A stretch of DNA of 13,094 nt from a virus (IMGVR_UViG_2602041549_000009), one strand, 5' to 3'. Counted from the stretch's first letter, positions 240 through 13,094 are shown. Notes: generated from the sequence alone by a model not told the origin. Program-made: numbers and translations.

Positions 240-262
240 AGGAGGGCTGAGAAGCCCTCAAC
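240..262 (-). terminator. Candidate intrinsic terminator after the 423-aa gene
   Basis: Stem GAGGGCT / AGCCCTC (242-248, 253-259) with a 4-nt loop, about 23 nt past the stop at 282; on the minus strand it is followed by CTTTTACTT. The T-tract is short and interrupted. Confidence 0.4.
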
Positions 263-281
263 GTTACCGGAAATTTCCTTG

Positions 282-1553
282 CTATTCTTTCCAGTCAATC
301 CCATCCAGTAAGCACCCTGCCTCATATTGCCCCACCACCCAGTCAAGGTTACAGGACTCATAGAACGCGAGGCGATTATACTGAGGCTCGTTTTTTACCA
401 GGCCACGAACGGAACCACGCTGCCAGTACAGACACAGATTGGCAAGAGGTGTGATCAATACAGCATTGTCCGGGAAAAATGGAACGGTCACAGCCGGGAG
501 ATTCCCCAGAACAGGATTTTTAATGATTTCCTCGTTAAGCAAAATTTCCTGATTCATCTGCGATGGATCAAGACGGTTTATCAAAGGCCATTGCTTACGG
601 ACCAGCGTATTGTGACTGCATACGGCCACAATGCCTTCCTGCCACTGTTCATCAATCATGGATTGCCAGGCATCCAGAACGAGCGCATCTATCGTATGGT
701 GTGTACCGCGTGTATTACTTTTCGGTGATGAAACAGAAAGGCCGCTGATAACCCTTCCCGCCGCTTCATTTCGAAACTTCTGCAACCAGCCCACGCCGCA
801 ATCATCACGCCCCGGATATGTTCCGGGATCTGATGTATCGGCATAGTGCGTACCGTTAAAACCAATCTGAATCAAATCCAGCCATTTCCGGCGTTCAAAA
901 GCAGCCCGTGCGCTTCCTTCAAGACCGTTTGCGGATGCGTGAGCATCAACATTGTCGTAGTTCAGCGCAAAATCAAAATTAACCTGCTCGCAGCGGTAGC
1001 CCCTTGAAACCAGTGAATGCGCCTGTAGTGGCGAACGGCGCTCGTGAGGTGGCGATGTACGTGCCAACGGCCCCGAAGCGTCTACCAGCACAACCCGACC
1101 TGATATATCCGTAACAGGCACGGGAGTTATTTCAGCAAGGAAATTTGCCTGCCATCCACTGGCAAGCGTTGCACTCTGGCGGGGAACGGGTTCAACTTCT
1201 GACGAATAGCGCGCAGTGTCACCGGAAAAGTGCAAATCCTTCGGATGCTTTCCGGTTATCGACTCGATAGCGCAATTGAAAACCATCTGAGCCTGTTGAT
1301 TTCGTTGTGATGCAACAGAATCAGCAGTGCAATTATAACGCTCAATGCCGTCGTTATTACCCCCACCGCTTGCAGTATGCAGGGTGTGAAGCTCAAGCTC
1401 ACGCTCCAGTTTTTGATATTCATTGTCCAGCGCGCGACGCGTCTCATTGCTTATGCTTGCTGTGTTTGCTTTCAGGCGATTCCGGGACATTAATCCCCTG
1501 AGTCGGCTCACTATATCAGCGCCGTGCAAATGTGGAGTATTCAGACCGCCCAT
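282..1553 (-). CDS. Hypothetical 423-aa protein of unknown function, translationally coupled to the upstream Psu-like gene; candidate satellite hotspot cargo
   Basis: Long minus-strand ORF. I chose the start at 1553 (MGGLNTPHLHG...) because its ATG overlaps the upstream stop as TAATG; the ORF track's 1694 start would overlap the upstream gene by 141 nt. I see no Walker A, HNH, reverse-transcriptase or other motif I can name. Confidence 0.6.
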   Translation of the reverse strand: MGGLNTPHLHGADIVSRLRGLMSRNRLKANTASISNETRRALDNEYQKLERELELHTLHTASGGGNNDGIERYNCTADSVASQRNQQAQMVFNCAIESITGKHPKDLHFSGDTARYSSEVEPVPRQSATLASGWQANFLAEITPVPVTDISGRVVLVDASGPLARTSPPHERRSPLQAHSLVSRGYRCEQVNFDFALNYDNVDAHASANGLEGSARAAFERRKWLDLIQIGFNGTHYADTSDPGTYPGRDDCGVGWLQKFRNEAAGRVISGLSVSSPKSNTRGTHHTIDALVLDAWQSMIDEQWQEGIVAVCSHNTLVRKQWPLINRLDPSQMNQEILLNEEIIKNPVLGNLPAVTVPFFPDNAVLITPLANLCLYWQRGSVRGLVKNEPQYNRLAFYESCNLDWVVGQYEAGCLLDGIDWKE

Positions 1554-2263
1554 TACTGCCACCCCCGGCAGAGTTCTCTGCCCTCCGCAAGGTCGCGCAT
1601 TTTTTCTGGATTCTGTCGCGCCGCGCTCCATTGTACAGGTGAAGGGGCGTTCCTGATTGTGCGGCTTACCGAATCCGGGAGTTTCTCCGGGCAATAACGC
1701 AGCGGGCTGGAGGTGTCGCTTTCGGTATCGTTAATCCGGCCGCGAATCATCCCGGCACTTTCAGCAGCATCTGTCGCTTTCAGTGTTTCGCATATTTTCT
1801 TTTCTGCGTTATACAGCGGCTGGCCAAGCAGCTCACATAAACCACGAATCAATAACAGAGCAGGGGTCAGCTCGTTAATCAGTTCGGGAAGTGCTTTTGC
1901 AAATATCTCTGCCCGCAACTTATTATCAATGCTTTCGTAAGCACAACCAGCCTCTGCCGCGTTATAACGACACTCCAGTAGCCTGATGCGCGCCTCATCA
2001 TGCAGCACCCGCAGACGCTCAAGATTTTCTCGCGCCACACCCGCCTGAATGGATAATTTCGCGGAGGCTTCCGTTTTTACGCCCAGCGCAGACAGGATTG
2101 AGTTCTGCCAGTCACGATCGAGAGATTCCAGCTCCCCTTTCGTCTGTTCGATAGTTGCTTCCAGATTGGTGATTAATGATTCCTGTTCACTGAGTTTTGC
2201 CATGGCTGTATCAAACTGTGCTTTACATACCTGATGTTCGGCGCTTGCCTGAGTTATATCCAT
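1553..2263 (-). CDS. psu: Psu-like (polarity suppression / capsid decoration) protein, P4 family, 236 aa
   Basis: ORF with SD AGGAG 6 nt before the ATG at 2263. Helical, coiled-coil-like composition with stretches (AQFDT near the N-terminus, ALPEL, ATDA) that resemble P4 Psu as I recall it. Lies downstream of an Ogr/Delta gene as in P4. Assignment is from memory, not alignment. Confidence 0.5.
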   Translation of the reverse strand: MDITQASAEHQVCKAQFDTAMAKLSEQESLITNLEATIEQTKGELESLDRDWQNSILSALGVKTEASAKLSIQAGVARENLERLRVLHDEARIRLLECRYNAAEAGCAYESIDNKLRAEIFAKALPELINELTPALLLIRGLCELLGQPLYNAEKKICETLKATDAAESAGMIRGRINDTESDTSSPLRYCPEKLPDSVSRTIRNAPSPVQWSAARQNPEKMRDLAEGRELCRGWQ

Positions 2264-2269
2264 TATTTG

Positions 2270-2380
2270 CTCCTGTAATACATTTTTTTACTTACGCCGA
2301 TTTTTTCCATATTGCGTAATACATTCCAGCCGATATTGTTCTCGTAATACGCTCACAATACTGTTGTATTACGCTTTCTT
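2270..2380. promoter_or_regulatory. Divergent promoter/operator region with repeated CGTAATAC (GTANTAC) sites
   Basis: Intergenic between the Psu-like gene (minus) and the plus-strand RHH-like gene. Copies at 2276-2282, 2316-2322, 2344-2350 and, inverted, 2366-2372; the last two form a perfect inverted repeat CGTAATAC-N15-GTATTACG (2343-2373). Confidence 0.5.
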
Positions 2381-2428
2381 ATATCGCGGGTGTTAAATCC
2401 CGGCATAAACAATCAGGGAGGCAACACG

Positions 2429-2662
2429 ATGAAAAAACAAAAGAAAATGCGATGCGTATTACGCTGTATTCGTATCCCGCACGAAATCGACCATAAAATA
2501 AATCAGATATGTCAGGACAGAGAGATGAACTACTCCCAGTGCGTCAGAATGTTTATCAGTCAGGGAATTAAGGCCGGGGAAACGCAGGAAGAAGACTGCA
2601 ACGGGCGCAATGTAGCGGGGGATGTGTGGGCCTGGGCAAATGACCAGAACCACACGACGTAA
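2429..2662 (+). CDS. Small ribbon-helix-helix-like DNA-binding protein (putative regulator or antitoxin-like), 77 aa
   Basis: Plus-strand ORF with strong SD GGGAGG 7 nt before the ATG at 2429 (MKKQKKMRCVLRCIRIPHEIDHKINQI...). The basic N-terminus followed by an RIPxEIDxKIN segment is RHH/CopG-like by eye. Convergent with the Ogr-like gene. Confidence 0.5.
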   Translation: MKKQKKMRCVLRCIRIPHEIDHKINQICQDREMNYSQCVRMFISQGIKAGETQEEDCNGRNVAGDVWAWANDQNHTT

Positions 2663-2712
2663 TACAGAAATAACGCAGCCGGTCACACTCGCTGGCTGTG
2701 TTATACAAATCA

Positions 2713-2895
2713 CTATGAAGTTTTCGACTTCCTGCGCTTAGTAATGCGCACAAACGACTCAAGCGTACAAAAACAGGCCCCACACTCAATATTATTGCAC
2801 TGGTAATACGTTCTGTAGATGTTTTGTTCGTGTTCTTCCAACGAACGACCACGGGTGCGGGCTGAAGCGCCACAGGCCGGGCAAGGGAAAGACAT
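2713..2895 (-). CDS. Ogr/Delta-family zinc-finger late-gene transcriptional activator, 60 aa
   Basis: Protein MSFPCPACGASARTRGRS...YYQCNNIECGACFCTLESF matches the Ogr/Delta pattern CPxC...YxQCxNxxCxxxFxTxES of P2 Ogr / P4 Delta. SD AGAGGAG 6 nt before the ATG. Confidence 0.85.
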   Translation of the reverse strand: MSFPCPACGASARTRGRSLEEHEQNIYRTYYQCNNIECGACFCTLESFVRITKRRKSKTS

Positions 2896-3160
2896 ATCAC
2901 GCTCCTCTTACTGGTGTGAAATTTAACCTATTATATCTTCTGTCGCCCCCTCTGGCTGTATCAAATAAACCCGCAGCAGTCGCCGCGTATTACGCACGGG
3001 CGCGCCGTTCCCATGCTCACTCGTCACATTCCCCGTATCAGTTCTCTCTTGCCGTAAGAACGGCTCTGGCTGGCGATAAAACTAACCCGGTCGGGGCATT
3101 CCCGTAGCCTTTAGCGTAAATGTAATTTACCCCCTGAAACGCGTGCTGTTCCCCCGTCAC

Positions 3161-3196
3161 CTGCGCACAAAAAACTCACCGTTTTTTGTGCACGCA
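3161..3196. promoter_or_regulatory. Near-perfect ~33-bp palindrome (operator-like)
   Basis: TGCGCACAAAAAAC-tcacc-GTTTTTTGTGCACGCA; the core arms CACAAAAAAC / GTTTTTTGTG are perfectly complementary. The AT-rich stem argues for a protein-binding dyad rather than a terminator. Confidence 0.4.
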
Positions 3197-3257
3197 CGAA
3201 ATCGCCCTCCGGGCGCGCCAGTACTGGGCCGGATGGGCAAAAAGTTACTCTAAAAAA

Positions 3258-3284
3258 TTGTGCAAATTTGTGCACTTTTGTGCA
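3258..3284. repeat. Three direct repeats of TTGTGCA spaced at 10 bp
   Basis: TTGTGCA at 3258-3264, 3268-3274 and 3278-3284, one helical turn apart, consistent with cooperative binding on one DNA face. Confidence 0.45.
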
Positions 3285-3508
3285 GATGAACAATAGCGTC
3301 AAAAAGAGTGCTTTTGAGAGATTTTTTATGGCAACTGCGCCGCGTGTATTACGTTTTTTACCATCCCCGCCGCGCATGTACATACTTCATTTTTCTGCCA
3401 AACAACAGGGCAACTCCCCGTGACTGACAGCCCCAAAAAATCAATGATTGATGTTGCATTTTTGTTAGAGGTCAGGCCAGTTGTTTTGGGGCTCTGCCTC
3501 ATAATCCG

Positions 3509-3827
3509 GTGGGGGGTGCGCAAAGCGGTTACAACGGTTACAACAGTCAAAAATACCACTTAACAACATGATTTTAATGGATATTGTTTGTAACCGCTTT
3601 GCGGTTACACTGCGGTTACAACGGTTACAGGTTTCAAAAAGCACTTTATTATCAATCAATTAAAAACTTAACCTGTAACCGCCTGTAACCTAACAAAACG
3701 GTTACATGTAACCGCGTTGTAACCGCTTTTGTAACTCATCCGACCAGTTATAATATATTGATATATAATACAAAAATAAGTAATTCTAAATTTGTAACCG
3801 TTGTAACCGCTTTGCGCATCCCCCCCC
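3509..3827. repeat. Palindromically organised iteron field: at least 13 copies of GGTTACA / TGTAACC flanked by a ~32-bp inverted repeat with an AT-rich centre; candidate replication origin (ori/crr-like) or recombinase arm-site cluster
   Basis: Forward GGTTACA at 3527, 3536, 3603, 3614, 3623, 3700; reverse TGTAACC at 3589, 3674, 3684, 3708, 3718, 3793, 3802. Outer inverted repeat 3511-3543 versus 3793-3827 (26 bp identical). Inner perfect 12-bp inverted repeat CGGTTACAGGTT (3622-3633) / AACCTGTAACCG (3670-3681) across an AT-rich spacer. Confidence 0.7.
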
Positions 3828-4020
3828 AAACTTTAGCGCGACCCTTTAAAATGTTAATTAAACTCACTTGCTCTGTCTCATTCTCATTAACTCTCTGTTA
3901 TTAAAATGTATCTCGTCATTATTTGACTCTTTCTGGTAATCAGGGGGGGCAAAAAATTGATGGCGGCACCACTGCAATATGGCCACCATTGCATTGCCGT
4001 TACCGTTGGTTCTGGCCAAC

Positions 4021-4050
4021 AAAAAAGGTCAGCGGGAAACTGACCTCTTT
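4021..4050 (-). terminator. Rho-independent terminator ending the primase-recombinase operon
   Basis: Stem GGTCAG / CTGACC (4027-4032, 4040-4045) with a 7-nt loop; on the minus strand it is followed by TTTTTT (4021-4026), about 25 nt past the recombinase stop at 4076. Confidence 0.7.
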
Positions 4051-4075
4051 TGCTGTGAATGTAGCGTTCTGCGGG

Positions 4076-5086
4076 TTACTCTGCTGGCTCTTTTTCTTCG
4101 GTGATCACTATGTTGGCTACCGGGTTAAATCTCATGGCATCTGCCAGGTAATCCGGTGCAAAATGCGCGTAAGTCATCGTCTGCTGAATAGTGCTGTGTC
4201 CTAGTATTTTCTGCAATGTGATGATGTTTCCACCATTAATCATAAAGTGAGTGGCAAAGGTATGCCGTAAAACATGCACAGACTGACCGACGGGTAAATC
4301 AGGCCGCACAGTCCTTATTGCACTTCTGACAGTTGCATAATTAGGTTTCATTAATCTTCCGGTCGCCTTTACTTTGACCAGTGATTCAAGATCTTTAGCG
4401 ATTGGAACGACCCGCCTTGAGCCGTTCTTTGTCTTCATAAAAATAACCTTTCCGCCAATTATGTGCTCACCTTTAATATTGGCAATCTCACCCCAGCGCC
4501 CACCTGTAGCCAGACACAACAATACAGCCTTAAGATTATCGCCAGATAAAAGCGCGGTTAGCCTGGAAATATCATCATGTGCAAGATAAGCCATTTCTGG
4601 CTGATTAATGTTTAACTTACGTATCTCGCGAAACGGGTTATTACCCGCAAACTCTTCAGCATCAATCAGCTTTTCAAAGAAACCGCTCATCATGGCACAA
4701 TAGCGATTTACTGTTGACTGTTTAATTCCACGATTCATTAATTTAAGTCGATATCTGATAATATTTTTCCGGGTTAAATGATCGCTTCTGTTTATCCCAA
4801 GTTCGCGCATATCACAAAGAACAGCTTCAATTCTTACCCGCGTCATCGCTCCATAACGATGATTCTTGCCATGATACGCCCACCATAATTCCAGAAGATC
4901 GCTTAACGCTTTACGTTCAATGGGCTTTTCGACCCACTCTTTGTTGTGGTAGTGCATCAGAACATGGCGTTCATACGCCACTGCTTCACCACGAGTATCA
5001 AATCGCCGCCTGAATCTTTTTCCTTCTGCTCCTGCAGGCCGCACGTCCACAGCAAACTTACCGTTAACCAACTTCTTTATCGTCAT
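4076..5086 (-). CDS. Tyrosine-type site-specific recombinase / integrase, about 336 aa
   Basis: C-terminal catalytic region HVLRHTFATH ... LGHSTIQQTMTYAHF (HxxR and catalytic Tyr) is typical of the phage-integrase family. The start at 5086 (MTIKKLVNGKF...) overlaps the primase stop as ATGA. Confidence 0.85.
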   Translation of the reverse strand: MTIKKLVNGKFAVDVRPAGAEGKRFRRRFDTRGEAVAYERHVLMHYHNKEWVEKPIERKALSDLLELWWAYHGKNHRYGAMTRVRIEAVLCDMRELGINRSDHLTRKNIIRYRLKLMNRGIKQSTVNRYCAMMSGFFEKLIDAEEFAGNNPFREIRKLNINQPEMAYLAHDDISRLTALLSGDNLKAVLLCLATGGRWGEIANIKGEHIIGGKVIFMKTKNGSRRVVPIAKDLESLVKVKATGRLMKPNYATVRSAIRTVRPDLPVGQSVHVLRHTFATHFMINGGNIITLQKILGHSTIQQTMTYAHFAPDYLADAMRFNPVANIVITEEKEPAE

Positions 5087-7758
5087 TTTTCGGTGACCTC
5101 CTTGTAACTGAATATCCGGCATTTCAGCACTTCCGGCTCTCTGGCTTCGGCTACTCCTTTTCCGGCGTTTGCCTGTCTGGACACCTCACTACGAATGGTT
5201 TTACGGCCTGTCAACGGTCGGGAACGCCCAGCTCCGAGCAACTCAATCATTTCGCGATCGGTTCGGATCTCCACGCGGTGAATGGCGGCAGCCTGTGCCA
5301 GTTGCGGAATACTGATAGCAATCCCTTCGCGGCATCCCTTGCCGTAATGGTTTACACCGTATTTTGTTATGCCGTCCAGGAAGTCGAACGCCTCCCAGAA
5401 CTCCATCACTTCTGGCAAGTCAGCCGCCGCCGCTTTAACCTGCGCCGTTGCCATTTGTTCCAGTTCCAGACATGTGGCATCAAGCCATTCATCCGGGATA
5501 TCGATAACGCATTTCAGCGCCCTGACCAGCGCGATAAGTTGCGCGTGATTTTTGGCAATACGGGGATGGCGAATATTTTCGCATCCGCAAAGGCGTTCCG
5601 TTTCAGCGGGCGATACCTCCAGGAACGTTTGCATAATCGCCCGTTCCTGACTTACCGCCCGGTGAATAAACCCCGATACCTTCTCGACGGGGTAGAGTTC
5701 CAGCCGTCTCGCCGCCAGTCGGGTATCAGGTGAATGGCGTTTTTTATCGGTGTATATGCGTATCAGGCGCTCAATAATTGCCGGCGAGGCATTTACCCGC
5801 GCATTCTGCGCAATCACGATAGCGCCCTTAAAATCCGGGTCATAGGTGTTGTTATTGTTGGCCTTAACCCCACGAACACCGATACCGCCACCGTTATAGA
5901 GGCTTTTCAGGTTATCGAAGTCAAACGCACCTCTTTTTTGCGCATTGTCTCCCCGGTCTGCTTCAATCAGAACAACAGGCAATCCGGCGACCTGTCCAAA
6001 GGTGCGCTTCCAGCCCGCCTCTGATCCTTTGGTTGGATCAACTCCTTCGTAGTTGTCACGACCGCACAGCCGCCAGCAAAAATCAATCAATGTTGATTTG
6101 CCCGTTCCGGGCTCTCCGGTGACTTCAAGGAAAGGGAAGGATTCTTCTTTATCCCGGATTTGTTCGCTGAACAGGGAGCCCAACCAGAAAGCCAGGGTAA
6201 TAATTCCCTTTTCACCAAAAGCCAGCCAGAGATCTTCCACCCAGGACGCTGTAAATTCATCCGGTTTTTTGTAGTTAATCTGTAATGTGGGGTTTTCGCT
6301 TAATGGTTTTGCGTTTATGCCATCAATTTCAAAATAATCCTCGTCATTGATTTCATAAGTTTTTCCCTTGTAAACAGCAATATCATTAAACAGCCATGCC
6401 CCAATCGCCTTGTTGTATCCGATAAAATCCTGACCAATAACCTCTTTTATTGCGGGAAGGTCATTTTTTATTAATGCGTCAAGCTGCGTAGTCGTTCCGG
6501 TATAAATACCGCCTTTTGCCACGTGTAACAGGCGTTTTTTAAATTCAGATGAGGATGTTAATTGTCCTGATGTAAAGGTGTTTTTCACCGTAGCACCATC
6601 CGGGAACGTAACACGGAAGTAATACCATGCTTCATCCGTGTCATTATTTCGAATGTAATAAAGCGGCGCTGGGTTACAGTTTGCGATTTCTTTTACTGCA
6701 CCAGATTCCTTAAGTGCAATTTTGCGCGCTTCATCCTCATCAACATTTCGCTCATTAATGACACGCTCAACAGCCTTCATATGGCGCTCAATGTCCAGCT
6801 TGAACCAGAAAACACGGTTATCAAAAGTAAAATGAAATTCCTTCCGCTCACGAAAGGAAAACATTATTAGTGCCTTATCTCTTGGAGATTTCGCCAGCAA
6901 TAAATCACCGTAATAACGGTATCTTTTCACATCATGGCCACGCAGCTTTCCGGCGATGTGTAAATCATTCCAGTCGCGTTTATTGTTGTTTTTACCTGGC
7001 AACGCCGCTGCCGTTCTCCAGCCGTCTTCGGCGCTGCGTTCTGCATGTTTTTTCGCGTAACGCTCACCTGCACGCCCGTTATCCAGCGCCCACACGATAA
7101 CCGGACGGGGATTATCCCCGCACAGCTTCGCCAGCTCTTCCAGTGCCTTATCAGGGTAGTTCACGGCAGACATGACAGAAACGGCCGCAATGCCATTCTG
7201 GTTAAGGCTGATGGCATCAAAGATACCCTCACAAATCCAGATTTCTTTGGCCTTGCTTAAATCTGCTCCCGGATAAGCCCACCACAACCCCTTGTAGCTG
7301 CCGGAAAAATTCGCCTTCCGTTCGAAGCGTTCCGGTCGGTCTATGATGCGCTCCCACCACACGTCGTCAGCCAGCGTAAAACGCACAGTAGCGGCCTGTT
7401 CGCCGCTTTCCTTGTCTTTGTATCGCTCCTGGGTAAATACCCCCTTCAGTGGCTCTGTAGCAATATTGCGTGCCTCCAGGAGATAAGCTGCCGCCGCTGC
7501 GTATGGTTCATCTTTCGTACTGATATAGCGATCTGACCATGATGAAAACACATCCGGGTAAAGTTCTTTAGTCAGCAGGTCTGTACCGCATTTATTTTCA
7601 CGCCCGCAGTGTACGATGTACGGCCTTTCAAGGCTGGTAAACAACTCTTTCTTTCCACATTGCGGACAAACACCATACCGGAGGTAGTTATTTTCTTCTT
7701 TGAAGTTGTAATCACGGATAAGACGGTTAATAATCTCTTTTCTGATGTCAGATTTCAT
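5083..7758 (-). CDS. P4 alpha-like primase-helicase (zinc-binding N-terminus, TOPRIM-like motif, C-terminal P-loop NTPase), about 891 aa
   Basis: N-terminal CPQCGKK...HCGRENKCG zinc-ribbon-like motif; WICEGIFDAISL (EGxxD TOPRIM signature); Walker A GEPGTGKST and Walker-B-like VVLIEADRGD. Start placed at 7758 (MKSDIRK...) because SD GGAG sits 8 nt upstream; the ORF track's 7782 start lies inside the upstream hairpin. Confidence 0.85.
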   Translation of the reverse strand: MKSDIRKEIINRLIRDYNFKEENNYLRYGVCPQCGKKELFTSLERPYIVHCGRENKCGTDLLTKELYPDVFSSWSDRYISTKDEPYAAAAAYLLEARNIATEPLKGVFTQERYKDKESGEQAATVRFTLADDVWWERIIDRPERFERKANFSGSYKGLWWAYPGADLSKAKEIWICEGIFDAISLNQNGIAAVSVMSAVNYPDKALEELAKLCGDNPRPVIVWALDNGRAGERYAKKHAERSAEDGWRTAAALPGKNNNKRDWNDLHIAGKLRGHDVKRYRYYGDLLLAKSPRDKALIMFSFRERKEFHFTFDNRVFWFKLDIERHMKAVERVINERNVDEDEARKIALKESGAVKEIANCNPAPLYYIRNNDTDEAWYYFRVTFPDGATVKNTFTSGQLTSSSEFKKRLLHVAKGGIYTGTTTQLDALIKNDLPAIKEVIGQDFIGYNKAIGAWLFNDIAVYKGKTYEINDEDYFEIDGINAKPLSENPTLQINYKKPDEFTASWVEDLWLAFGEKGIITLAFWLGSLFSEQIRDKEESFPFLEVTGEPGTGKSTLIDFCWRLCGRDNYEGVDPTKGSEAGWKRTFGQVAGLPVVLIEADRGDNAQKRGAFDFDNLKSLYNGGGIGVRGVKANNNNTYDPDFKGAIVIAQNARVNASPAIIERLIRIYTDKKRHSPDTRLAARRLELYPVEKVSGFIHRAVSQERAIMQTFLEVSPAETERLCGCENIRHPRIAKNHAQLIALVRALKCVIDIPDEWLDATCLELEQMATAQVKAAAADLPEVMEFWEAFDFLDGITKYGVNHYGKGCREGIAISIPQLAQAAAIHRVEIRTDREMIELLGAGRSRPLTGRKTIRSEVSRQANAGKGVAEAREPEVLKCRIFSYKEVTEK

Positions 7759-7771
7759 ATATAAAACTCCA

Positions 7772-7800
7772 CCCCACTGCACCTTTTGCAGTGGGGTTTT
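7772..7800. other. GC-rich hairpin between the 101-aa gene and the primase start (bidirectional terminator or attenuator candidate)
   Basis: CCCCACTGCA (7772-7781) pairs with TGCAGTGGGG (7787-7796) around a 5-nt loop. On the plus strand it is followed by TTTT (7797-7800); on the minus strand it is followed by GGAG-TTTT and then the primase ATG. Confidence 0.45.
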
Positions 7801-7801
7801 A

Positions 7802-8107
7802 TTAATTACTCGTTACTTCTTGTTTCTTGGTAATCCCTGCGGCTTCAGCTTTGTGCCATGAAAAAATACCGCCAGAAAGATGCATACCAGATTTTATTGT
7901 TTCTAATTCCCGATAAATAATATTAAACAGAGATACAATTGCTTTGTTTGTGATTTCTGAAGATGCTCCGCAATCCCTCTCACCAAACATGATGGATATA
8001 AGATCGATGAGGTTAATTACATCTGCGAGATCTTCTTTTGCACTCTCTGTAAAAAATCCAATGTATTCTTTATCTAAAATATCCGCGTAATTCTGATTTT
8101 CAGACAT
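7802..8107 (-). CDS. Hypothetical 101-aa protein, AT-rich compositional outlier
   Basis: ORF with SD GGGGGAG 5 nt before the ATG at 8107. The gene is visibly more AT-rich than its neighbours. No recognisable motif. Confidence 0.6.
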   Translation of the reverse strand: MSENQNYADILDKEYIGFFTESAKEDLADVINLIDLISIMFGERDCGASSEITNKAIVSLFNIIYRELETIKSGMHLSGGIFSWHKAEAAGITKKQEVTSN

Positions 8108-8175
8108 AAAAACTCCCCCGACCCGTTAAGGTCGAAATATAAATTTAATTCAGTTATCAGTGGATAATTCGGGAA

Positions 8176-8394
8176 TCAGGCGGAAAGCTGCGTCACCTTC
8201 AACGCTCTGAAATGTGTCATTCCCAGCTCTTCCAGCCCTTCGGCTGCGCGGCGTATGGCTTCGCCCGGTCCCGTTCCGTATACCGTTGCATGTGCATGTT
8301 TGGTTAACCCGCGCTTATTAACGGCATAACCCAACACAAAGAAACGTTTTTCACCACTGCCATTATTTTTACGGGATGCTGAACGGGTTTTCAT
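8176..8394 (-). CDS. Hypothetical small protein, 72 aa (early-region small protein)
   Basis: Its ATG overlaps the upstream stop as ATGA at 8391-8394. Glycine-rich basic protein MKTRSASRKNNGSGEKRFFVLGYAVNKRG...; may belong to the small Icd-like/Ash-like families seen in P4-like prophages, but I cannot confirm. Confidence 0.55.
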   Translation of the reverse strand: MKTRSASRKNNGSGEKRFFVLGYAVNKRGLTKHAHATVYGTGPGEAIRRAAEGLEELGMTHFRALKVTQLSA

Positions 8395-8579
8395 TTCTTC
8401 ACCTTTACCACTGATGCTGTGAGCTCTTCTTCTGGCAATTGATATTTCGGCGCAATTTCTTCCGTATACCTGATAGCGTCCCTTGCCGCTTTTCCTTTTG
8501 ATTTATATTTACGTATCGTGTGGAAGTTTTCTTCCTCTCCTGTTACCACATTACGCAATTTAATATGAATCTCGTACAT
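8391..8579 (-). CDS. Hypothetical small protein, 62 aa
   Basis: Strong SD GGAGG 7 nt before the internal ATG at 8579 (MYEIHIKLRN...). The ORF track's 8609 start lacks an RBS and overlaps the upstream gene. Confidence 0.55.
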   Translation of the reverse strand: MYEIHIKLRNVVTGEEENFHTIRKYKSKGKAARDAIRYTEEIAPKYQLPEEELTASVVKVKK

Positions 8580-8581
8580 CG

Positions 8582-8764
8582 TTACCCCTCCATGATTTTT
8601 ACTGCGCATTTGTGGGTTAATCGCCCCTGTTTGTCATTGCGGGAATATGCCATACGACAGGCATCACGCCATGCATCGTCATAAGTCGGGTATTCCCGGG
8701 CATGAATCATCTGGCGAACGTCGCCGTTCTGGCAGTTAATCAGGGTGATAAGGAGCTTAAACAT
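8582..8764 (-). CDS. Hypothetical small protein, 60 aa
   Basis: SD GGGAGG 6 nt before the ATG at 8764 (MFKLLITLINCQNGD...). Overlaps the upstream gene's end by 8 nt; its stop at 8582-8584 abuts the next start at 8579. Confidence 0.5.
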   Translation of the reverse strand: MFKLLITLINCQNGDVRQMIHAREYPTYDDAWRDACRMAYSRNDKQGRLTHKCAVKIMEG

Positions 8765-8930
8765 GGCACGCCTCCCGGACACGGATACGGGCGACAAAGA
8801 CCAGGCGGGATGCAGGAAGCAGGGCGCGCGCTTCGCGCTCACTGGCAGCGGTAACGGTATGAAGGCGGATATTTTTACCGTGGCACTGCATAAAGCGCCA
8901 GATAAAATCAGGGCGTGTTGATATAGCCAT
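8757..8930 (-). CDS. Hypothetical small protein, 57 aa
   Basis: SD GGGAG 8 nt before the ATG at 8930 (MAISTRPDFIWRFMQCHGKNIRLH...). The longer 175-aa version in the ORF track has a low-complexity hydrophobic N-terminal extension with no RBS. Confidence 0.5.
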   Translation of the reverse strand: MAISTRPDFIWRFMQCHGKNIRLHTVTAASEREARALLPASRLVFVARIRVREACHV

Positions 8931-8949
8931 ATGAAAGGCTCCCAATTCA

Positions 8950-8980
8950 AGTTTAAGAAGCCTCACTACAACGCTGTCAA
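8950..8980 (-). promoter_or_regulatory. Candidate sigma70 promoter for the small-gene operon
   Basis: On the minus strand: perfect -35 TTGACA (plus 8975-8980), 18-19 bp spacer, -10-like TTAAAC/TAAACT (plus 8950-8956), about 20 nt upstream of the SD for the 8930 start. Confidence 0.35.
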
Positions 8981-9252
8981 ACGTGGTGGCGAGACGTAAC
9001 AGGGTTGACAGACTGGCAAATTGGGAAACCAGCGAGCATAAAGCTCCCCCATTACGCCCCGCCATAATACGGGAAAGGGTGGTATTACGGGCACAAAAAA
9101 ACCGCATTACGGAATACAAGCGGCTACCCGCCAATTTATTCAGGCTGTCAAACCCGGCACCTGTTTTATGAGGTGCGGGCAAACGATACGCCATGACAAA
9201 AAAGCGAGTCAAGCAATATTGCAAATTATTTTGGCGCGATTGCGCTGAGTGA

Positions 9253-9281
9253 TTGATTTTTAAGAGTAAAAAAGCCATAAT
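9253..9281 (+). promoter_or_regulatory. Candidate sigma70 promoter on the plus strand
   Basis: -35 TTGATT (9253-9258), exactly 17-bp spacer, -10 CATAAT (9276-9281). Confidence 0.45.
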
Positions 9282-9287
9282 CATTTC

Positions 9288-9378
9288 TGCCTATTATTTC
9301 TTATTGTTGGTTTCAGGTGCACTAAATGCACATCCTTGACTGGTTGGCTCGCTAGCTTTAGCGAGCTTCTTTTTTTTG
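9288..9378 (+). ncRNA. Candidate ~90-nt small RNA (promoter-to-terminator unit), antisense to the minus-strand early transcript
   Basis: Bounded by the plus promoter at 9253-9281 and the plus terminator at 9347-9378. Contains an internal hairpin GTGCA-ctaaa-TGCAC (9317-9331). No ATG-initiated ORF with an RBS in the interval. Confidence 0.35.
9347..9378 (+). terminator. Strong rho-independent terminator, plus strand
   Basis: Perfect 8-bp stem GCTCGCTA / TAGCGAGC (9347-9354, 9359-9366) with loop GCTT, followed by TTCTTTTTTTT (9367-9377). The minus-strand reading has no T-tract after the stem, so it is plus-specific. Confidence 0.7.
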
Positions 9379-9560
9379 CTCTGCTGCCAGTACCCAGCCT
9401 CCTTCCCTCACATGTAGTAATGTGCCCGCTCCAGTCAGCTGGATAATGCTGTATTCCCGGACATCCGGTTATGATGTTTAAAGCGTTTGTTTGTTTATGC
9501 CACGTGGAGAATATCCCCATGTCGCCATTAATTGTATTTATCATAACAGTTTACCCAATC

Positions 9561-9577
9561 CGGTTAATGTAACCGGA
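9561..9577. promoter_or_regulatory. Perfect 17-bp palindrome CCGGTTA-atg-TAACCGG containing the iteron core
   Basis: Inverted repeat with a 3-bp centre; each half carries the GGTTA/TAACC core of the iterons at 3509-3827. Lies between alpA and the small-gene operon. Confidence 0.45.
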
Positions 9578-9839
9578 ATAACTCAATTTCATACACTGTA
9601 AATAAATGCTGATTTTGAACTTAGCTCCTTGGAATATATTTCTTACGTGTGACGTACAGGTGAAAATATCCCTCTGATAGTCCATTTTCTTTTATTGGGT
9701 CACATCTGTTTACTCCGGTTCCCTTAACAAGGGTAGAGCATCTTTTAAACCATGAATGCATCTTTGGTTAAGTGATGTTTCTTATTGAATGAAATGTTTA
9801 GGCGCATATCGCGCCATGCTGACTATAAAGTGAAAATAA

Positions 9840-10061
9840 TTAAGCCTGAAAACGTTGTTGTTTTCTTTCTTCTATCCAGTCGATAATTTCCTCTTCAACC
9901 CATGCAACCGCACGAGGGCCTATTTTTATTGGTTTGGGGAATATATCAGATTTTATATCTTCGTAAATTCGAGCTCTCGATCTCCCTGTGATTTCAATGA
10001 CTCTGGGGAGTCTTATTAATTTTTGAATCCGCCTTTCGCTGGTCTGTGAGTATGCTGACAT
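9840..10061 (-). CDS. alpA: AlpA-family phage regulatory protein (helix-turn-helix; excisionase/transcription regulator), 73 aa
   Basis: Protein ...IRLPRVIEITGRSRARIYEDIKSDIFPKPIKIGPRAVAWVEEEIIDWI matches the AlpA/HTH_17 pattern (hydrophobic-TG-S/R-R-x-x-IY ... FP-K-P-x-K-x-G-x-R-A-x-x-W). SD AGGAGG 5 nt before the ATG. Confidence 0.85.
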   Translation of the reverse strand: MSAYSQTSERRIQKLIRLPRVIEITGRSRARIYEDIKSDIFPKPIKIGPRAVAWVEEEIIDWIEERKQQRFQA

Positions 10062-10416
10062 ATTGGCCTCCTGTATATGCTGAACACTTTACGTTAGCTC
10101 ACAGTGGGAGCATGTAAGATCTCGCGGTCGTCTGCGGGACGAGAAAAATCATAAACAACGAAAAGCGGATTTGTAAATCTGGTCGATTTTCAGACGGGGT
10201 TGACATGGACAGTTAGATTTGTTCCATGTGTGAAATACACATTTTAGGACCACTTTAATCCGCTTTAAACCGCCTGGAAGCGACAAAGAATAACAAGTTA
10301 GTGCCAGAAAGGTTTGCTGACTTACCCTTTCAGGCACCAGGAAAGCCCGTTCTGGGGGATGTAATGCTTGCGAACGCTGGAATAGTGGTTTCTGAAAACA
10401 AAAAAAGAATTGAAAA

Positions 10417-10432
10417 TGTGATACATATCACA
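10417..10432. promoter_or_regulatory. Consensus CRP-type site TGTGA-N6-TCACA
   Basis: AAAATGTGAtacataTCACAAAAT: perfect TGTGA/TCACA half-sites with a 6-bp spacer and an A/T-rich flank, in the AT-rich integrase-alpA intergenic region. Confidence 0.4.
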
Positions 10433-10589
10433 AAATGATATCGATAAAATAGTTTGATTTTTTTGTTTTTATTAAAAGCACTGGTTAATTGTGAAAAATT
10501 AATTATAAATCAAATGGATATATCTGTTTTTTTAGGGTAAAAATCACTAGGTGCTTTTAGTGAGGTCTTATTCTATTGATTTTAAAAGA

Positions 10590-10624
10590 TAAAAAAATCG
10601 GCGTGTCCACATATTGTCCACGCC
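10590..10624 (-). terminator. Candidate intrinsic terminator after the integrase gene
   Basis: Stem GGCGTG / CACGCC (10600-10605, 10619-10624) with a 13-nt loop; on the minus strand it is followed by a T7 tract (rc of 10590-10599), about 48 nt past the integrase stop. Confidence 0.5.
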
Positions 10625-10671
10625 TTGAGCTTAATTCAGCCGCTTGGGGTAGTTTAGTTTGTTGAGTTGAT

Positions 10672-11934
10672 TCAGTCTGTTTCGTTAGCCCATTTAAAAT
10701 CATAGGGGGCAATATATGCCGTCTTGCAGGTGTCGAGATAATCAGCCCACCATTGCAACATTCGGCGGCGTTCCTGCATATGTTCAGCTCTGTGAATGTA
10801 TGCAGCCCGGACACTGCCTCTTTCCCTGTGACTCATCTGAAGCTCAACGGCTTCTCTTGTCCACCTGCCTGACTCTGTCAGCGCCGAACAGGCCATAGCT
10901 CTGAATCCGTGGCCACAAATATCTTTTTTTGTGTCGTATCCCATGTGGCGTAATGCCTTGTTAATGGTGTTTTCGCTCATTGGTTTTATCTGGTAATGGT
11001 CGCCGGGGAAAATAAACAATTCATCACCGGATATATTTCTTATATCGTCAAGAAGCTGCATGGCCTGAGTGGGCAAAGGGATGGCGTGAGGGGTTCCCAT
11101 TTTCGTTCCACGATATGAATATTTTACGCCTTCTATTTTTTCGCGTTCTGCTGGTATTACCCACATTGATTTATCAAAGTCAATTTCATTCCAACGAGCA
11201 AAACGCAATTCACTTGAGCGAATAAAAATTAATAAATTTAATTTTAGTGCAAATTGCGTTAATAACCGTCCATTCATCTTGTGGTGGTAATCATTTATTT
11301 TGCCAAGTAATTCAGGTAATCGCTCAAGGGGAAGAGCGGGGCGATGTTTGGTTTTATTAGTTTCGATTGCACCGTTCAGTTCCTGCGCTGGATTGTATTT
11401 AATCATTCCATTCTGTACAGCGTAGCGCATAATGGCGTTCATTCGCTGCTTGTTACGTGATGCTGTCTCAAGCACTCCTTTATCTTCCATTTTGCGTAAA
11501 GGAATCAGTAGATCCATGGTTGTGATCTCGTTAATTGGCCTTTTACCAAGAATGGGGAAGATGTGGTTTTCCAGGTCTTTTAAGACTTTTTGCGCGTGTA
11601 ATTCGCTCCAGCCCTTTTTCCGGCTGTGCCATTCTCTGGCAACGTCTTCAAAAAGCACTATTTGAGGTTTTGGTGTGTGCAGTGGGTCAATGCCTTTAGC
11701 CAGGCTCGCCAGATATTCATCACGAGCGTTCCTTGCCTGTGCAAGTGTTACGGCAGGATAAATGCCTAAAGCTCGGGTCGTTTCTTTACCGTTGATAACC
11801 TTGCGAAAGCGCCAGTATTTTGAGCCGTTGGGGTGAACATAGAGATACAGGCCTTTCCCGTCACGAAGTTTTTTAATTTTGTTGTTGTCCTTATCTGGTT
11901 TGGCGTTACGTACAGCTACATCAGTCAGTTTCAT
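10672..11934 (-). CDS. int: P4-type tyrosine integrase (DUF4102-like N-terminal arm-binding domain plus catalytic domain), about 421 aa
   Basis: N-terminus MKLTDVAVRNAKP...GKGLYLYVHPNGSKYWRFR and C-terminus HGFRAMA...RAAYIHRAEHMQERRRMLQWWADYLD are characteristic of P4/CP4-57-type integrases. SD GGAGG 9 nt before the ATG at 11934; the track's 11976 start has no RBS. Confidence 0.85.
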   Translation of the reverse strand: MKLTDVAVRNAKPDKDNNKIKKLRDGKGLYLYVHPNGSKYWRFRKVINGKETTRALGIYPAVTLAQARNARDEYLASLAKGIDPLHTPKPQIVLFEDVAREWHSRKKGWSELHAQKVLKDLENHIFPILGKRPINEITTMDLLIPLRKMEDKGVLETASRNKQRMNAIMRYAVQNGMIKYNPAQELNGAIETNKTKHRPALPLERLPELLGKINDYHHKMNGRLLTQFALKLNLLIFIRSSELRFARWNEIDFDKSMWVIPAEREKIEGVKYSYRGTKMGTPHAIPLPTQAMQLLDDIRNISGDELFIFPGDHYQIKPMSENTINKALRHMGYDTKKDICGHGFRAMACSALTESGRWTREAVELQMSHRERGSVRAAYIHRAEHMQERRRMLQWWADYLDTCKTAYIAPYDFKWANETD

Positions 11935-12200
11935 TATGTTGATCCTCCAGACGGGTACAAATAAAAATCGAACCAAGCGTACCCGTTTTTATACCCATTT
12001 TAATATGGGCTTCAGGCAAATTTAACGAGAGATAACGAGACAATGGAAGAGATTTAACTCATTGAAAAACAATGGGTAATGGTTTTTTCTGAGAGATTGC
12101 GAGAAGTTGCGATGGTGTCCCCTGCAGACATCTACTTGAGGCAGCAGGGGATTGATTGGAATGGTATTTTTTAGATGTGAGAAATATTTTACCCGCTATT

Positions 12201-12401
12201 TTACCCATTGGCGCGGCTTAAGAGCTTATTTTTGAATTCACAATGGTCGCGATATAACCATCTTGCGCGTCCGTGGATAACTTTGGCTTTTGGCAGGTCG
12301 CCGGACTTAATCCGGTCATAGATGAAGGTTTTACCGAAGCCAGTATCGGCCATGATGAATTTCAAATCAACCAGGGAATCAGGCTGTAGTTCGTGTTGCA
12401 T
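12201..12401 (-). CDS. Second AlpA-like helix-turn-helix regulator / excisionase-like protein, 66 aa
   Basis: ...FIMADTGFGKTFIYDRIKSGDLPKAKVIHGRARWL fits the AlpA/HTH_17 pattern less closely than the 9840-10061 gene. SD GGAG upstream of the ATG. Lies directly upstream of the integrase in the same orientation (xis-int-like). Confidence 0.6.
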   Translation of the reverse strand: MQHELQPDSLVDLKFIMADTGFGKTFIYDRIKSGDLPKAKVIHGRARWLYRDHCEFKNKLLSRANG

Positions 12402-12440
12402 GAGTGCTATCTCCGAATAGGGAATCGAACCTGCAAATCA

Positions 12441-12468
12441 GGCAATAAAAAACCGCCATCAGGCGGCT
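12441..12468 (-). terminator. Rho-independent terminator after the 12510-12809 gene
   Basis: Stem CCGCC / GGCGG (12453-12457, 12462-12466) with loop ATCA; on the minus strand it is followed by TTTTTATTG. Confidence 0.55.
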
Positions 12469-12509
12469 TGGTGTTCTTTCAGTTCTTCAATTCGAATATT
12501 GGTTACGTC

Positions 12510-12809
12510 TTATTCGATGCGCACTCCTGGTATTTCGCCTTTTGATATTGCTAAGTCATAAATTTGCGCTGCACTATACCCATCTCGCATCCATGAATCT
12601 AAGGCGCGAACAGCCTCGCTACGCTTTTTATCTTCTCTCTCATTTTTGATATCAACGAGGACATCAACGCAATTAAGGCAAATGTGGATTTTGTCCTTAC
12701 ATTCGATCATGGCGGCTTTGCCATGATTTCCTCCACACAGTGAGCATAAATCTTCAGGGTCTGGCTGGTATTTCTGTAACGTTAGAGGGTTGAATGTTGA
12801 ACAGGCCAT
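12510..12809 (-). CDS. Hypothetical cysteine-rich (possible zinc-ribbon) protein, about 99 aa
   Basis: Cys cluster CSLCGG...C...HICLNC. Start is ambiguous among three in-frame ATGs (12821, 12815, 12809); GGAG precedes the third (MACSTFNPL...). Confidence 0.5.
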   Translation of the reverse strand: MACSTFNPLTLQKYQPDPEDLCSLCGGNHGKAAMIECKDKIHICLNCVDVLVDIKNEREDKKRSEAVRALDSWMRDGYSAAQIYDLAISKGEIPGVRIE

Positions 12810-12850
12810 AATCATCTCCATAAAACAAAACTCGCCGTAGCGAGTTCAGA

Positions 12851-12880: not shown

Positions 12881-13094
12881 TTATTCATTGCCGATATTAA
12901 CCTTTATCGCGTACACCTTTACCGGTTTATCACCGAAGTGGGGATGTGTGATTGTCTTTATTTCATATCCGTCATACGGAACATCAATTCTACGGCTGGA
13001 ATCGTCGCGCTTCGGATATCCCTTTGTGATAATCAGGCGGTCATATTCCCGGAACATGGATTTGCCCCTATATTTCCAGACATCTGTTATCACT
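12881..13094 (-). CDS. Hypothetical protein, probably 5'-truncated by the window edge
   Basis: ORF runs to the window edge with no ATG (the track's start is a GTG at the boundary). No recognisable motif. Confidence 0.4.
   Translation of the reverse strand, partial: VITDVWKYRGKSMFREYDRLIITKGYPKRDDSSRRIDVPYDGYEIKTITHPHFGDKPVKVYAIKVNIGNE

What the first reader, a model, noticed from the sequence alone, without database searches (positions are those of the whole stretch)
11935..12500. No tRNA or recognisable att next to the P4-type integrase; an AlpA-like gene sits directly upstream instead
Established knowledge: P4/CP4-57-type integrases normally sit immediately next to the target tRNA or tmRNA gene. 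Seen in sequence: the 265 bp upstream of int contain no tRNA, only a hairpin (ACGGGTAC, 20-nt loop, GTACCCGT, then T5 at 11951-11990) and direct repeats GAGAGAT-N-CGAGA (about 12036 and 12091), followed by an AlpA-like gene and two more minus-strand genes. Inference: either a tandem island array or a lambda-like xis-int module with att on the other side of int.
Basis: partly seen in the sequence, partly recalled or inferred. Interest (0 to 1): 0.45.

Follow-up and report, generated by a model that had tools for sequence, protein, structure and literature searches.

The report
Hybrid att site between tandem elements
The integrase lacks a neighbouring tRNA gene because a P4-like satellite and an Sf6/KplE1-type prophage sit back to back at the same tRNA-Arg site, leaving only a 16-base tRNA remnant between them, which is an ordinary and well-understood arrangement.

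Summary
The window has no tRNA gene (ARAGORN), but an attachment site is clearly recognisable. On the minus strand, 12112-12127 reads CTGCAGGGGACACCAT. This is the last 15 nt of tRNA-Arg(CCU) argW plus one base. It is the annotated attP core of phage Sf6 and the 'pawZ' remnant of K-12 prophage KplE1.

Left of the core, window 38-12127 is a 12-kb P4-like satellite (int, AlpA, C4/isrK RNAs, primase, Ogr/Delta). In other E. coli this satellite abuts an intact argW. Right of the core, 12112-13057 is the end of an Sf6/KplE1-type prophage. The 'AlpA-like' gene there is TorI, 100% identical to K-12 TorI, followed by the complete phage-side arm of the published attR.

The junction is therefore a hybrid site (phage P arm, core, satellite P' arm), as expected inside a tandem array. 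An independent assembly carries the identical junction. A closed genome shows the full analogous array with three cores.

The 'hairpin' is the inverted pair of P4-type integrase arm repeats, laid out and spaced as in P4 attP and conserved across genera. The GAGAGAT repeats are not conserved and do not exceed chance.

The lambda-like xis-int reading is rejected. The finding is ordinary.

The parts
12112..12127 (-). Shared att core CTGCAGGGGACACCAT. Positions 12113-12127 are the last 15 nt of tRNA-Arg(CCU) argW. This is the internal att of a tandem array.
   Evidence: Exact match, the only copy in the window. It equals the 3' end of the annotated tRNA-Arg in L001, the K-12 'pawZ' 15-nt argW pseudogene at the CPS-53/KplE1 right end, and the annotated 16-nt Sf6 attP core. 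Left-hand homology ends at 12127 and right-hand homology starts at 12111-12113.
11935..12111 (-). P' arm of the P4-like satellite's attachment site, which is also the int upstream/leader region.
   Evidence: 100% identical to the region between int and intact argW in L001. Identical in L010.
11979..12001 (+). Two tandem arm-type repeats, GTACCCGTTTT (11979-11989) and the degenerate ATACCCATTTT (11991-12001). In int orientation they read AAAATGGGTAT-AAAAACGGGTAC.
   Evidence: They lie about 110 nt from the core, against 112 nt for the annotated P' arm repeats of P4. The motif recurs twice in tandem in the satellite's far P arm (L003 2448-2469). It is conserved as YGGGTAY in STEC316, Scandinavium and Rahnella relatives while the surrounding DNA diverges.
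11951..11958 (-). Inverted arm-type repeat GTACCCGT just upstream of the int RBS.
   Evidence: It corresponds to the inverted 'attP arm sequence repeat' annotated at the start of P4 int. It is conserved across genera. The two stem changes in STEC316 are not compensatory.
11967..11974 (-). Conserved spacer element GGTTCGAT between the direct and inverted arm repeats. Function unknown.
   Evidence: Invariant in all Arg-clade relatives. P4 has TTCGATT at the same place. It contains GTTCG, the TorI-site core reported in PMC2951348, but a single copy is within chance.
12128..12224 (-). P arm of a KplE1/Sf6-type attR, overlapping the 3' end of torI.
   Evidence: Close to the K-12 torI-attR sequence, differing at 2 of about 73 positions, and 98% identical to Sf6. 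The published attR-IHF2 primer CTCTTAAGCCGCGCCAATGG, which bounds the functional 135-bp attR substrate (PMC3509656), is present at 12205-12224.
12201..12401 (-). torI, the recombination directionality factor of the KplE1/Sf6/HK620 module.
   Evidence: 66/66 identical to K-12 TorI. Matches PDB 1Z4H. Annotated torI in E. coli hits.
10672..11934 (-). P4-family tyrosine integrase of the satellite, argW-specific clade.
   Evidence: Pfam domains. 52.8% identical to P4 Int and 33% to IntS. Closest relatives in other genera sit about 178 nt downstream of tRNA-Arg(CCT).
9840..10061 (-). The satellite's own AlpA-family regulator and putative excisionase.
   Evidence: PF05930, E = 5.5e-17. PHROG 'excisionase and transcriptional regulator'.
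38..12127 (-). P4-like satellite block. It holds a P2-family capsid gene, Ogr/Delta, a second recombinase, a primase, an Icd-like gene, C4/isrK RNAs, AlpA and int. Its left end is truncated by IS1.
   Evidence: One contiguous 12.1-kb match, 93-98.5% identical, lying between argW and dsdC in 19 complete E. coli genomes. Rfam C4 at 8982-9069 and isrK at 9095-9176. PHROGs.
12510..12821 (-). Homologue of Sf6 gene 19 (phage early-left region).
   Evidence: phrog_3680.
12881..13056 (-). 3' part of a phage ASCH-domain gene, cut by IS2.
   Evidence: Annotated as ASCH in E. coli hits. Identity with L010 stops at about 13057.
12450..12469 (-). Intrinsic-terminator-like hairpin upstream of torI.
   Evidence: No such site was found on the minus strand between torI and int.
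1..37 (.). IS1 terminal fragment.
   Evidence: 37/37 match to the end of K-12 IS1A.
13057..13094 (.). IS2 terminal fragment.
   Evidence: 38/38 match to the right end of K-12 IS2A.

Best explanation
Window 11935-12224 is the internal, hybrid attachment site of a tandem array at the E. coli argW tRNA-Arg(CCU) locus. Two unrelated mobile elements recombine through the same roughly 16-nt sequence at the 3' end of argW. One is an Sf6/HK620/KplE1-type (P22-like) prophage that uses IntS and TorI. The other is a 12-13-kb P4-like satellite with its own P4-family integrase.

After both have integrated, in either order, the chromosome reads: argW - intS ... phage ... torI - [phage P arm - core - satellite P' arm] - int ... 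satellite ... - core - dsdC. The intact tRNA is therefore a whole prophage away. Only its last 15 nt remain next to the satellite integrase, and the phage's excisionase gene torI ends up directly upstream of that integrase.

Shown here: the chimeric nature of the junction, the identity of each half, the core, and recurrence of the junction in another assembly.

Inferred: the 8-bp 'hairpin' arms and the adjacent tandem copy are arm-type binding sites for the satellite integrase. The evidence is that they match the number, orientation and spacing of the annotated P4 attP arm repeats. Each integrase can probably still excise its own element, regenerating a normal attL or attR for the other. The core-proximal half-site on the phage arm (GATGTC) resembles the satellite's own (GATTTC) and the tRNA's (GATTCC), flanking a 7-nt spacer.
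For: 1. Homology break. In complete E. coli genomes window 38-12127 is one block that ends inside an annotated tRNA-Arg next to yfdC. Window 12111/12113-13057 matches torI-containing prophage ends and phage Sf6 from exactly the annotated attP core onward.

2. Alignment A1. The window equals the K-12 torI-attR arm, then CTGCAGGGGACACCAT(C), then the satellite attL arm.

3. K-12 annotates the same 15 nt as pawZ at the KplE1 right end. The published attR primer lies at 12205-12224.

4. TorI is 100% identical to K-12 TorI. The integrase is only 33% identical to IntS but 52.8% identical to P4 Int.

5. An independent assembly (L010, GCA_038411015.1) has a 100% identical junction, with lambdoid early genes (CII, Cro, CI, N, Rad52, SSB, anti-RecBCD) upstream and no tRNA within 10 kb.

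6. Closed genome CH4794 shows the complete analogous array with three cores: dsdC - core - P4-like element/int - core - torI - P22-like prophage - intS - argW - yfdC.

7. Arm repeats. All four GTACCCGT copies in L003 lie in the two att arms, and 0 of 200 shuffles reached four. They are conserved across genera. Their layout and distances match the annotated P4 attP repeats.

8. Frequency. 10 of 80 species-level loci of this integrase family lack an intact upstream tRNA, and 8 of those 10 retain a tRNA 3' fragment at the usual distance.
Against: The window holds only one copy of the core. It is bounded by IS1 and IS2 ends, so the outer att sites, the phage's intS and the intact argW of this particular genome were not seen. 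The prophage part could be a remnant or could have been rearranged by IS activity.

No complete E. coli genome among 5,426 carries this exact junction, and neither does any species-representative genome or viral contig.

Binding of the integrase to the proposed arm sites and activity of the hybrid site are untested.

No sigma-70-like promoter was detected in the arm by the simple scan.
Confidence: 0.9

Rival explanations
1. torI and int form one lambda-like xis-int module of a single element. TorI would be the excisionase for this integrase, and the att site would lie on the far side of int.
For: torI and int are co-oriented and 266 nt apart, with no minus-strand terminator between them. TorI is distantly AlpA/Xis-like. 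Free phage Sf6 has the same gene order, torI - core - int.
Against: The att core lies between the two genes, and there is no other copy in the window. The satellite occurs without torI in 19 complete genomes and in 9 of 10 sampled contexts. The torI block occurs without this int in over a thousand genomes. TorI's cognate integrase is IntS, only 33% identical to this one. The arm next to int has one GTTCG rather than the five TorI sites mapped on KplE1 attL. The satellite has its own AlpA.
Confidence: 0.03
2. The junction is an assembly chimera, a mis-join of two contigs through the short shared repeat.
For: The window is bracketed by IS ends, typical of short-read contigs. The exact junction is absent from 5,426 complete E. 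coli genomes.
Against: A 16-17-nt repeat is shorter than usual assembly k-mers. An independent assembly (L010, a contig seen in two samples) has a 100% identical junction over about 1.15 kb. Closed genomes show the analogous torI - core - int junction with another P4-like element.
Confidence: 0.01
3. The ACGGGTAC-N20-GTACCCGT-T5 element works as an RNA or DNA hairpin (terminator, attenuator or leader structure controlling int), not as protein-binding repeats.
For: The stem is predicted in both the MFE and the centroid fold of the intergenic transcript. A stem of 7-8 pairs remains possible in relatives.
Against: The T-run follows the stem only on the plus strand, where nothing is transcribed into it. 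On the int strand the stem is followed by CUGGAGG. The terminator scan does not call it. Changes in STEC316 give one wobble and one broken pair, so there is no covariation. The 20-nt 'loop' is itself conserved. A third copy lies outside the stem and two more lie in the far arm in tandem, not inverted. The same layout is annotated as arm repeats in P4. An 8-bp inverted repeat is reached in 11% of shuffles.
Confidence: 0.07
4. The tandem order is functional. N-antiterminated early-left transcription of the induced prophage would read through torI and the core into the satellite's int, coupling satellite excision in cis to induction of the neighbouring phage.
For: All genes are co-oriented. No terminator-like site lies on the minus strand between torI and int. 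The related arrays encode an N antiterminator. Cis-coupled satellite-helper configurations exist (PMC10111431).
Against: There are no expression data. The satellite normally sits at argW without a phage. Its capsid and Ogr/Delta genes point to a P2-type helper, not a P22-like one. The arrangement follows automatically from a shared att core, so no selection is needed to explain it.
Confidence: 0.07

Closest known systems
attR of cryptic prophage KplE1 (CPS-53) in E. coli K-12, with torI and the 15-nt argW remnant 'pawZ'
   Same: Identical TorI protein. The P arm differs from K-12 at only 2 of about 73 positions, and the published attR primer site is present. The core is identical.
   Different: In K-12 the core is followed by chromosomal DNA leading to dsdC. 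Here it is followed by the P' arm and integrase of a P4-like satellite.
attP region of phages Sf6 and HK620 (gene 19 - torI - 16-nt core - intS)
   Same: Same gene order and orientation. 98% DNA identity from the core through gene 19.
   Different: Beyond the core Sf6 has its own P' arm and IntS. The window has an unrelated arm and an integrase only 33% identical to IntS.
Phage P4 attP/int (leuX-specific)
   Same: Integrase 52.8% identical. Same arm-repeat architecture: two tandem repeats on the P arm, two tandem plus one inverted on the P' arm at the int start, core-to-repeat distances of about 110 versus 112 nt, and TTCGATT in the spacer. C4-type immunity RNA is present.
   Different: The target is tRNA-Arg(CCU) rather than tRNA-Leu(CAA). 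The repeat motif is CGGGTAC rather than GGGGGCA. The element carries a P2-family capsid gene and a second recombinase.
Tandem genomic-island, PICI or prophage arrays sharing one att site, as resolved by island-mapping tools (PMC10111431)
   Same: An internal att flanked by two independently mobile units, with three related att sites in the complete array.
   Different: Here the two units use only distantly related integrases (33% identity) that converge on the same core. Only the internal site is visible in the window.

Membership tests
Tandem array of integrative elements at one tRNA att site | An internal att whose two flanks belong to different, independently distributed elements | tested here: met
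   Left block 38-12127 and right block 12112-13057 have separate distributions and meet at the core.
Tandem array of integrative elements at one tRNA att site | Three direct copies of the core, with an intact tRNA at the outer end | not testable with these tools
   Only one core lies in the window, and IS1 and IS2 ends bound it. The feature is met in the analogous closed genome CH4794. L010 could not be extended.
KplE1/Sf6/HK620 recombination module | TorI RDF together with the conserved attR P arm and the 16-nt argW core | tested here: met
   TorI 100% identical. P arm matches K-12 and is 98% identical to Sf6; core identical. attR primer site present.
KplE1/Sf6/HK620 recombination module | The cognate IntS integrase, and a P' arm carrying five TorI sites (GTTCG, GATCG, GTCCG) | tested here: not met
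   The adjacent integrase is 33% identical to IntS. The adjacent arm is the satellite's and has a single GTTCG. IntS itself must lie outside the window.
P4-family (tRNA-targeting, arm-binding) tyrosine integrase with P4-type attP | Arm-DNA-bind_3, central and catalytic domains, and similarity to P4 Int | tested here: met
   Pfam domains. 52.8% identity to P4 Int over 97% of its length.
P4-family (tRNA-targeting, arm-binding) tyrosine integrase with P4-type attP | int co-oriented with, and 150-250 nt downstream of, the target tRNA, with the core equal to the tRNA 3' end | tested here: met
   Met in relatives (L001, L005, L008, L009, L021-L023). In the window only the 15-nt tRNA end is present, at the same distance of 178 nt.
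P4-family (tRNA-targeting, arm-binding) tyrosine integrase with P4-type attP | Repeated arm sequences: two tandem on P, two tandem plus one inverted on P' | tested here: met
   Protein binding itself is not testable here.
Lambda-type xis-int operon with att downstream of int | xis belongs to the same element as int, and the att core lies beyond int | tested here: not met
   The core lies between torI and int and is the only copy in the window. torI and int have separate distributions.
AlpA family (PF05930), tested for the gene at 12201-12401 | Match to the PF05930 profile above threshold | tested here: not met
   Only a sub-threshold HTH_17 hit, E = 0.0079. PF05930 matches 9840-10061 instead. 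Pairwise similarity between the two proteins is weak.
P4-like satellite | int, alpA, alpha-type primase, Ogr/Delta and C4/CI-type immunity RNA | tested here: met
   psu, sid and cos were not looked for.

The most novel reading that the evidence does not exclude
The back-to-back order may be exploited rather than incidental. On induction of the P22-like prophage, N-antiterminated early-left transcription would run through torI and the hybrid att into the satellite's integrase gene. This would give a P4-like satellite a cis-acting trigger from a phage that is not its morphogenetic helper. Alternatively TorI, whose GTTCG recognition core occurs once in the conserved spacer of the satellite's arm, might modulate the satellite integrase.
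Probability: 0.06. Interest if true: 0.5.

Novelty: already known. Interest (0 to 1): 0.13.

Why it matters
The main value is for annotation. A P4-type integrase without a tRNA neighbour is a sign of a tandem array, not of a new integration mode, and the short tRNA 3' remnant marks the true island border.

This happened in about one in eight species-level loci of this integrase family. Island and prophage callers that require an intact tRNA, or that merge everything between outer repeats, will mis-delimit such elements.

The junction is also a natural test substrate. Two integrases only 33% identical to each other share one core, and each element's excision should regenerate a normal site for the other.

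Tried and rejected
- Exact junction searches. A 35-nt pattern across the junction found nothing in species-representative genomes or viral contigs. BLAST of the junction against 5,426 complete E. coli genomes found no place spanning it. The junction was found only through an exact-protein look-up (L010).

- Walking from L010 to the phage's intS and argW was not possible, because look-ups are limited to window proteins. A closed genome with an analogous array was used instead.

- GAGAGAT-N-CGAGA repeats as functional sites: rejected. They are not conserved in the 85% relative or in other genera, and the match is within chance.

- Hairpin as terminator or RNA structure: rejected as the main reading. 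There is no covariation, the T-run is on the wrong strand, the loop is conserved, and further copies lie elsewhere.

- The promoter scan of 11800-12600 found no sigma-70-like site. The int promoter is therefore placed only by analogy with P4 and KplE1.

- NCBIfam gave no family for TorI or AlpA.

- TorI-site motif in the satellite arm: a single GTTCG, which is not significant.

- The order of integration of the two elements cannot be deduced. Both orders give the same structure.

Full report
WHAT IS IN THE WINDOW

The integrase is on the minus strand at 10672-11934. It is 420 aa, and its ATG is at 11934, confirmed by the identical annotated CDS in L001. It has the P4-type domain set Arm-DNA-bind_3, Phage_int_M and Phage_integrase.

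ARAGORN finds no tRNA or tmRNA anywhere in the window.

THE ATT SITE IS THERE

On the minus strand, 12113-12127 reads CTGCAGGGGACACCA. It is the only copy in the window. This is the 3' end of tRNA-Arg(CCU), argW.

In E. coli HNSQ2209 (L001) the sequence from int up to and including these 15 nt is identical to the window. It then continues into the rest of the annotated tRNA-Arg, followed by yfdC.

K-12 annotates the same 15 nt as 'pawZ', the argW pseudogene at the right end of cryptic prophage CPS-53/KplE1, just after torI. The Sf6 genome record annotates the 16-nt version as the attP core.

TWO ELEMENTS MEET AT THE CORE

Window 38-12127 matches, as one 12.1-kb block at 93-98.5% identity, an island that lies between argW and dsdC in 19 complete E. 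coli genomes. Every such match stops at 12127.

Window 12111/12113-13057 matches torI-containing prophage ends in E. coli and, at 98%, phage Sf6 from its attP core through genes 18 (TorI) and 19.

Alignment A1 shows the chimera directly. It consists of the K-12 torI-attR arm, then CTGCAGGGGACACCAT(C), then the satellite's attL arm.

The protein at 12201-12401 is 66/66 identical to K-12 TorI and matches PDB 1Z4H.

Primer attR-IHF2 bounds the 135-bp attR substrate that recombines in vitro (PMC3509656). It lies at 12205-12224, so the entire phage-side arm of a KplE1-type attR is present.

The integrase next to the core is not TorI's partner. It is 33% identical to IntS but 52.8% identical to the integrase of P4.

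THE LEFT ELEMENT IS A P4-LIKE SATELLITE

It carries:
- a true AlpA gene (PF05930) at 9840-10061;
- an Icd-like gene;
- a P4-alpha-type primase;
- Ogr/Delta;
- a second tyrosine recombinase;
- a P2-family capsid gene;
- the C4 antisense RNA and isrK, both found by Rfam.

In related genomes it ends with a PemK/MazF module and a slightly degenerate core copy (ATGGTGTCCC-TGCAG) next to dsdC.

THE ARRANGEMENT IS REAL AND RECURRENT

An exact-protein look-up found an independent assembly (L010, GCA_038411015.1) whose junction is 100% identical to the window from int through torI to about 13057. Upstream of it lies a lambdoid early region (CII, Cro, CI, N, Rad52, SSB, anti-RecBCD), and there is no tRNA within 10 kb. 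The other nine contexts sampled have yfdC - argW - int.

The closed genome CH4794 displays the complete analogous array with a different P4-like element: dsdC - core - element/int - core - torI - P22-like prophage - intS - tRNA-Arg - yfdC. All three cores are present.

Tandem pairs defined by three related att sites are a recognised configuration in island mapping (PMC10111431).

Among 80 species-level loci of related integrases, 70 have an intact co-oriented tRNA upstream: 59 Leu-CAA, 5 Arg-CCT, 5 Phe and 1 Leu-TAA. The other 10 do not, and 8 of those 10 retain an 11-37-nt tRNA 3' fragment at the usual distance.

WHAT THE SMALL FEATURES ARE

Taken alone, the 8-bp inverted repeat and the 12/14 direct repeat are each matched or beaten in about 11% of shuffles of the 266-nt region.

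The GTACCCGT motif is nevertheless meaningful, for these reasons:
- In L003 all four copies lie in the satellite's two att arms, and 0 of 200 shuffles reached four.
- The far arm has two tandem copies.
- The near arm has two tandem copies, one of them degenerate, plus one inverted copy just before the RBS.
- This block, including the GGTTCGAT spacer, is conserved in a relative with 85% identity over window 10400-12127 and in Scandinavium and Rahnella relatives (integrases 78% and 65% identical), while the rest of the arm has diverged.
- The P4 genome record annotates exactly this layout as 'attP arm sequence repeats': two tandem on the P arm 53 nt from the core, two tandem on the P' arm 112 nt from the core, and one inverted at the int start, with TTCGATT in the spacer. 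Here the P' repeats are about 110 nt from the core.

I therefore read the 'hairpin' as integrase arm-type sites. This is an inference from homology of architecture; binding was not tested.

In P4 the annotated int -10 overlaps the first P' repeat. In KplE1 the intS promoter overlaps attL, and IntS represses it (PMC2951348). The same autoregulation is plausible here, but the simple promoter scan found no site.

The GAGAGAT-N-CGAGA repeats are not conserved. I do not consider them functional.

HOW IT MOST LIKELY WORKS

Both integrases recombine within the shared core. The plus strand reads GGTGTC-CCCTGCA-GACATC at 12114-12132. This is an imperfect inverted repeat around a 7-nt spacer, the usual geometry of core-type sites. 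The equivalent half-site is GATTTC on the satellite's own P arm and GATTCC in the tRNA. This is my reading of the sequence and is untested.

Successive integration in either order gives the observed hybrid: phage P arm, core, satellite P' arm. Excision of the phage by IntS and TorI should leave a normal argW-attL for the satellite. Excision of the satellite should leave a normal attR for the phage.

In this particular genome both elements are damaged. IS1 cuts the satellite's toxin gene at position 37/38, and IS2 cuts the phage ASCH gene at about 13057. Mobility may therefore be lost.

RIVALS

- Single lambda-like xis-int module. Rejected on the position of the core, the independent distribution of the two halves, and the non-cognate integrase.
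- Assembly chimera. Excluded by L010.
- RNA or terminator hairpin. Disfavoured: no covariation, T-run on the wrong strand, conserved loop, and extra copies elsewhere.
- Read-through from torI into int. Not excluded, because no terminator lies between them and related arrays encode N. It is unsupported by any data.

VERDICT

The claim of 'no recognisable att' is wrong.

All components are known and annotated in public records: the KplE1/Sf6 module, the pawZ core, and the P4-type int with its arm repeats. The arrangement is a routine consequence of two elements sharing one att site. Interest is low.

Noticed in passing
window 12421-12436 (minus strand): TTGCAGGTTCGATTCC, just upstream of torI, is identical to the 16 nt of argW (T-arm) that directly abut the att core in the tRNA, overlapping it by 1 nt. 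The phage therefore carries the two adjacent pieces of the tRNA 3' half about 293 nt apart, with torI and the P arm between them. The 16-mer is conserved upstream of torI in K-12, Sf6 (inside the annotated 'pI' promoter), Kapi1, L002 and L010. It contains the TorI-site core GTTCG. Origin and function are unexplained.
   Followed up: partly
window 1-37 and 13057-13094: The window is bracketed by an IS1 terminus (37/37) and an IS2 terminus (38/38). IS1 interrupts the satellite's PemK/MazF toxin gene and IS2 interrupts the phage ASCH gene. The window looks like a short-read contig ending in IS repeats.
   Followed up: yes
window 282-2263 (minus strand): The P4-like satellite encodes its own P2-family major capsid protein (PF05125, phrog_70; annotated as 423 aa in relatives), preceded by a 236-aa ORF with no family match. 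Classical P4 uses the helper's capsid protein. A different P4-like element at argW in CH4794 also has a P2-family capsid gene.
   Followed up: no
window 4076-5122 (minus strand): A second tyrosine recombinase (Int_N + Phage_integrase, Xer-like in NCBIfam) lies immediately downstream of the primase gene and overlaps its end. Its role is unknown.
   Followed up: no
window 8982-9176 (minus strand): Rfam C4 antisense RNA (70.5 bits) and isrK (52.3 bits) lie side by side, overlapping the ORF annotated as Icd-like. This is the P4-type RNA immunity region.
   Followed up: no
window 10062-10671: A 610-nt AT-rich non-coding gap between int and alpA, with long A/T runs. It was not analysed.
   Followed up: no
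L036, L043, L051, L054, L068, L069, L086, L094 (upstream of int): P4-clade (leuX-type) integrases in eight other species have only an 11-37-nt tRNA-Leu 3' fragment upstream instead of an intact tRNA. They are probably further tandem arrays or degraded sites. Their upstream neighbours were not examined.
   Followed up: partly
window 12128-12160 (minus strand) with the core: The KplE1-type P arm contains CCCCTGC, complementary to GCAGGGG of the core, giving a 7-8-bp stem across the junction in the RNA fold. It is also present in the K-12 attR. Its significance is unknown.
   Followed up: no
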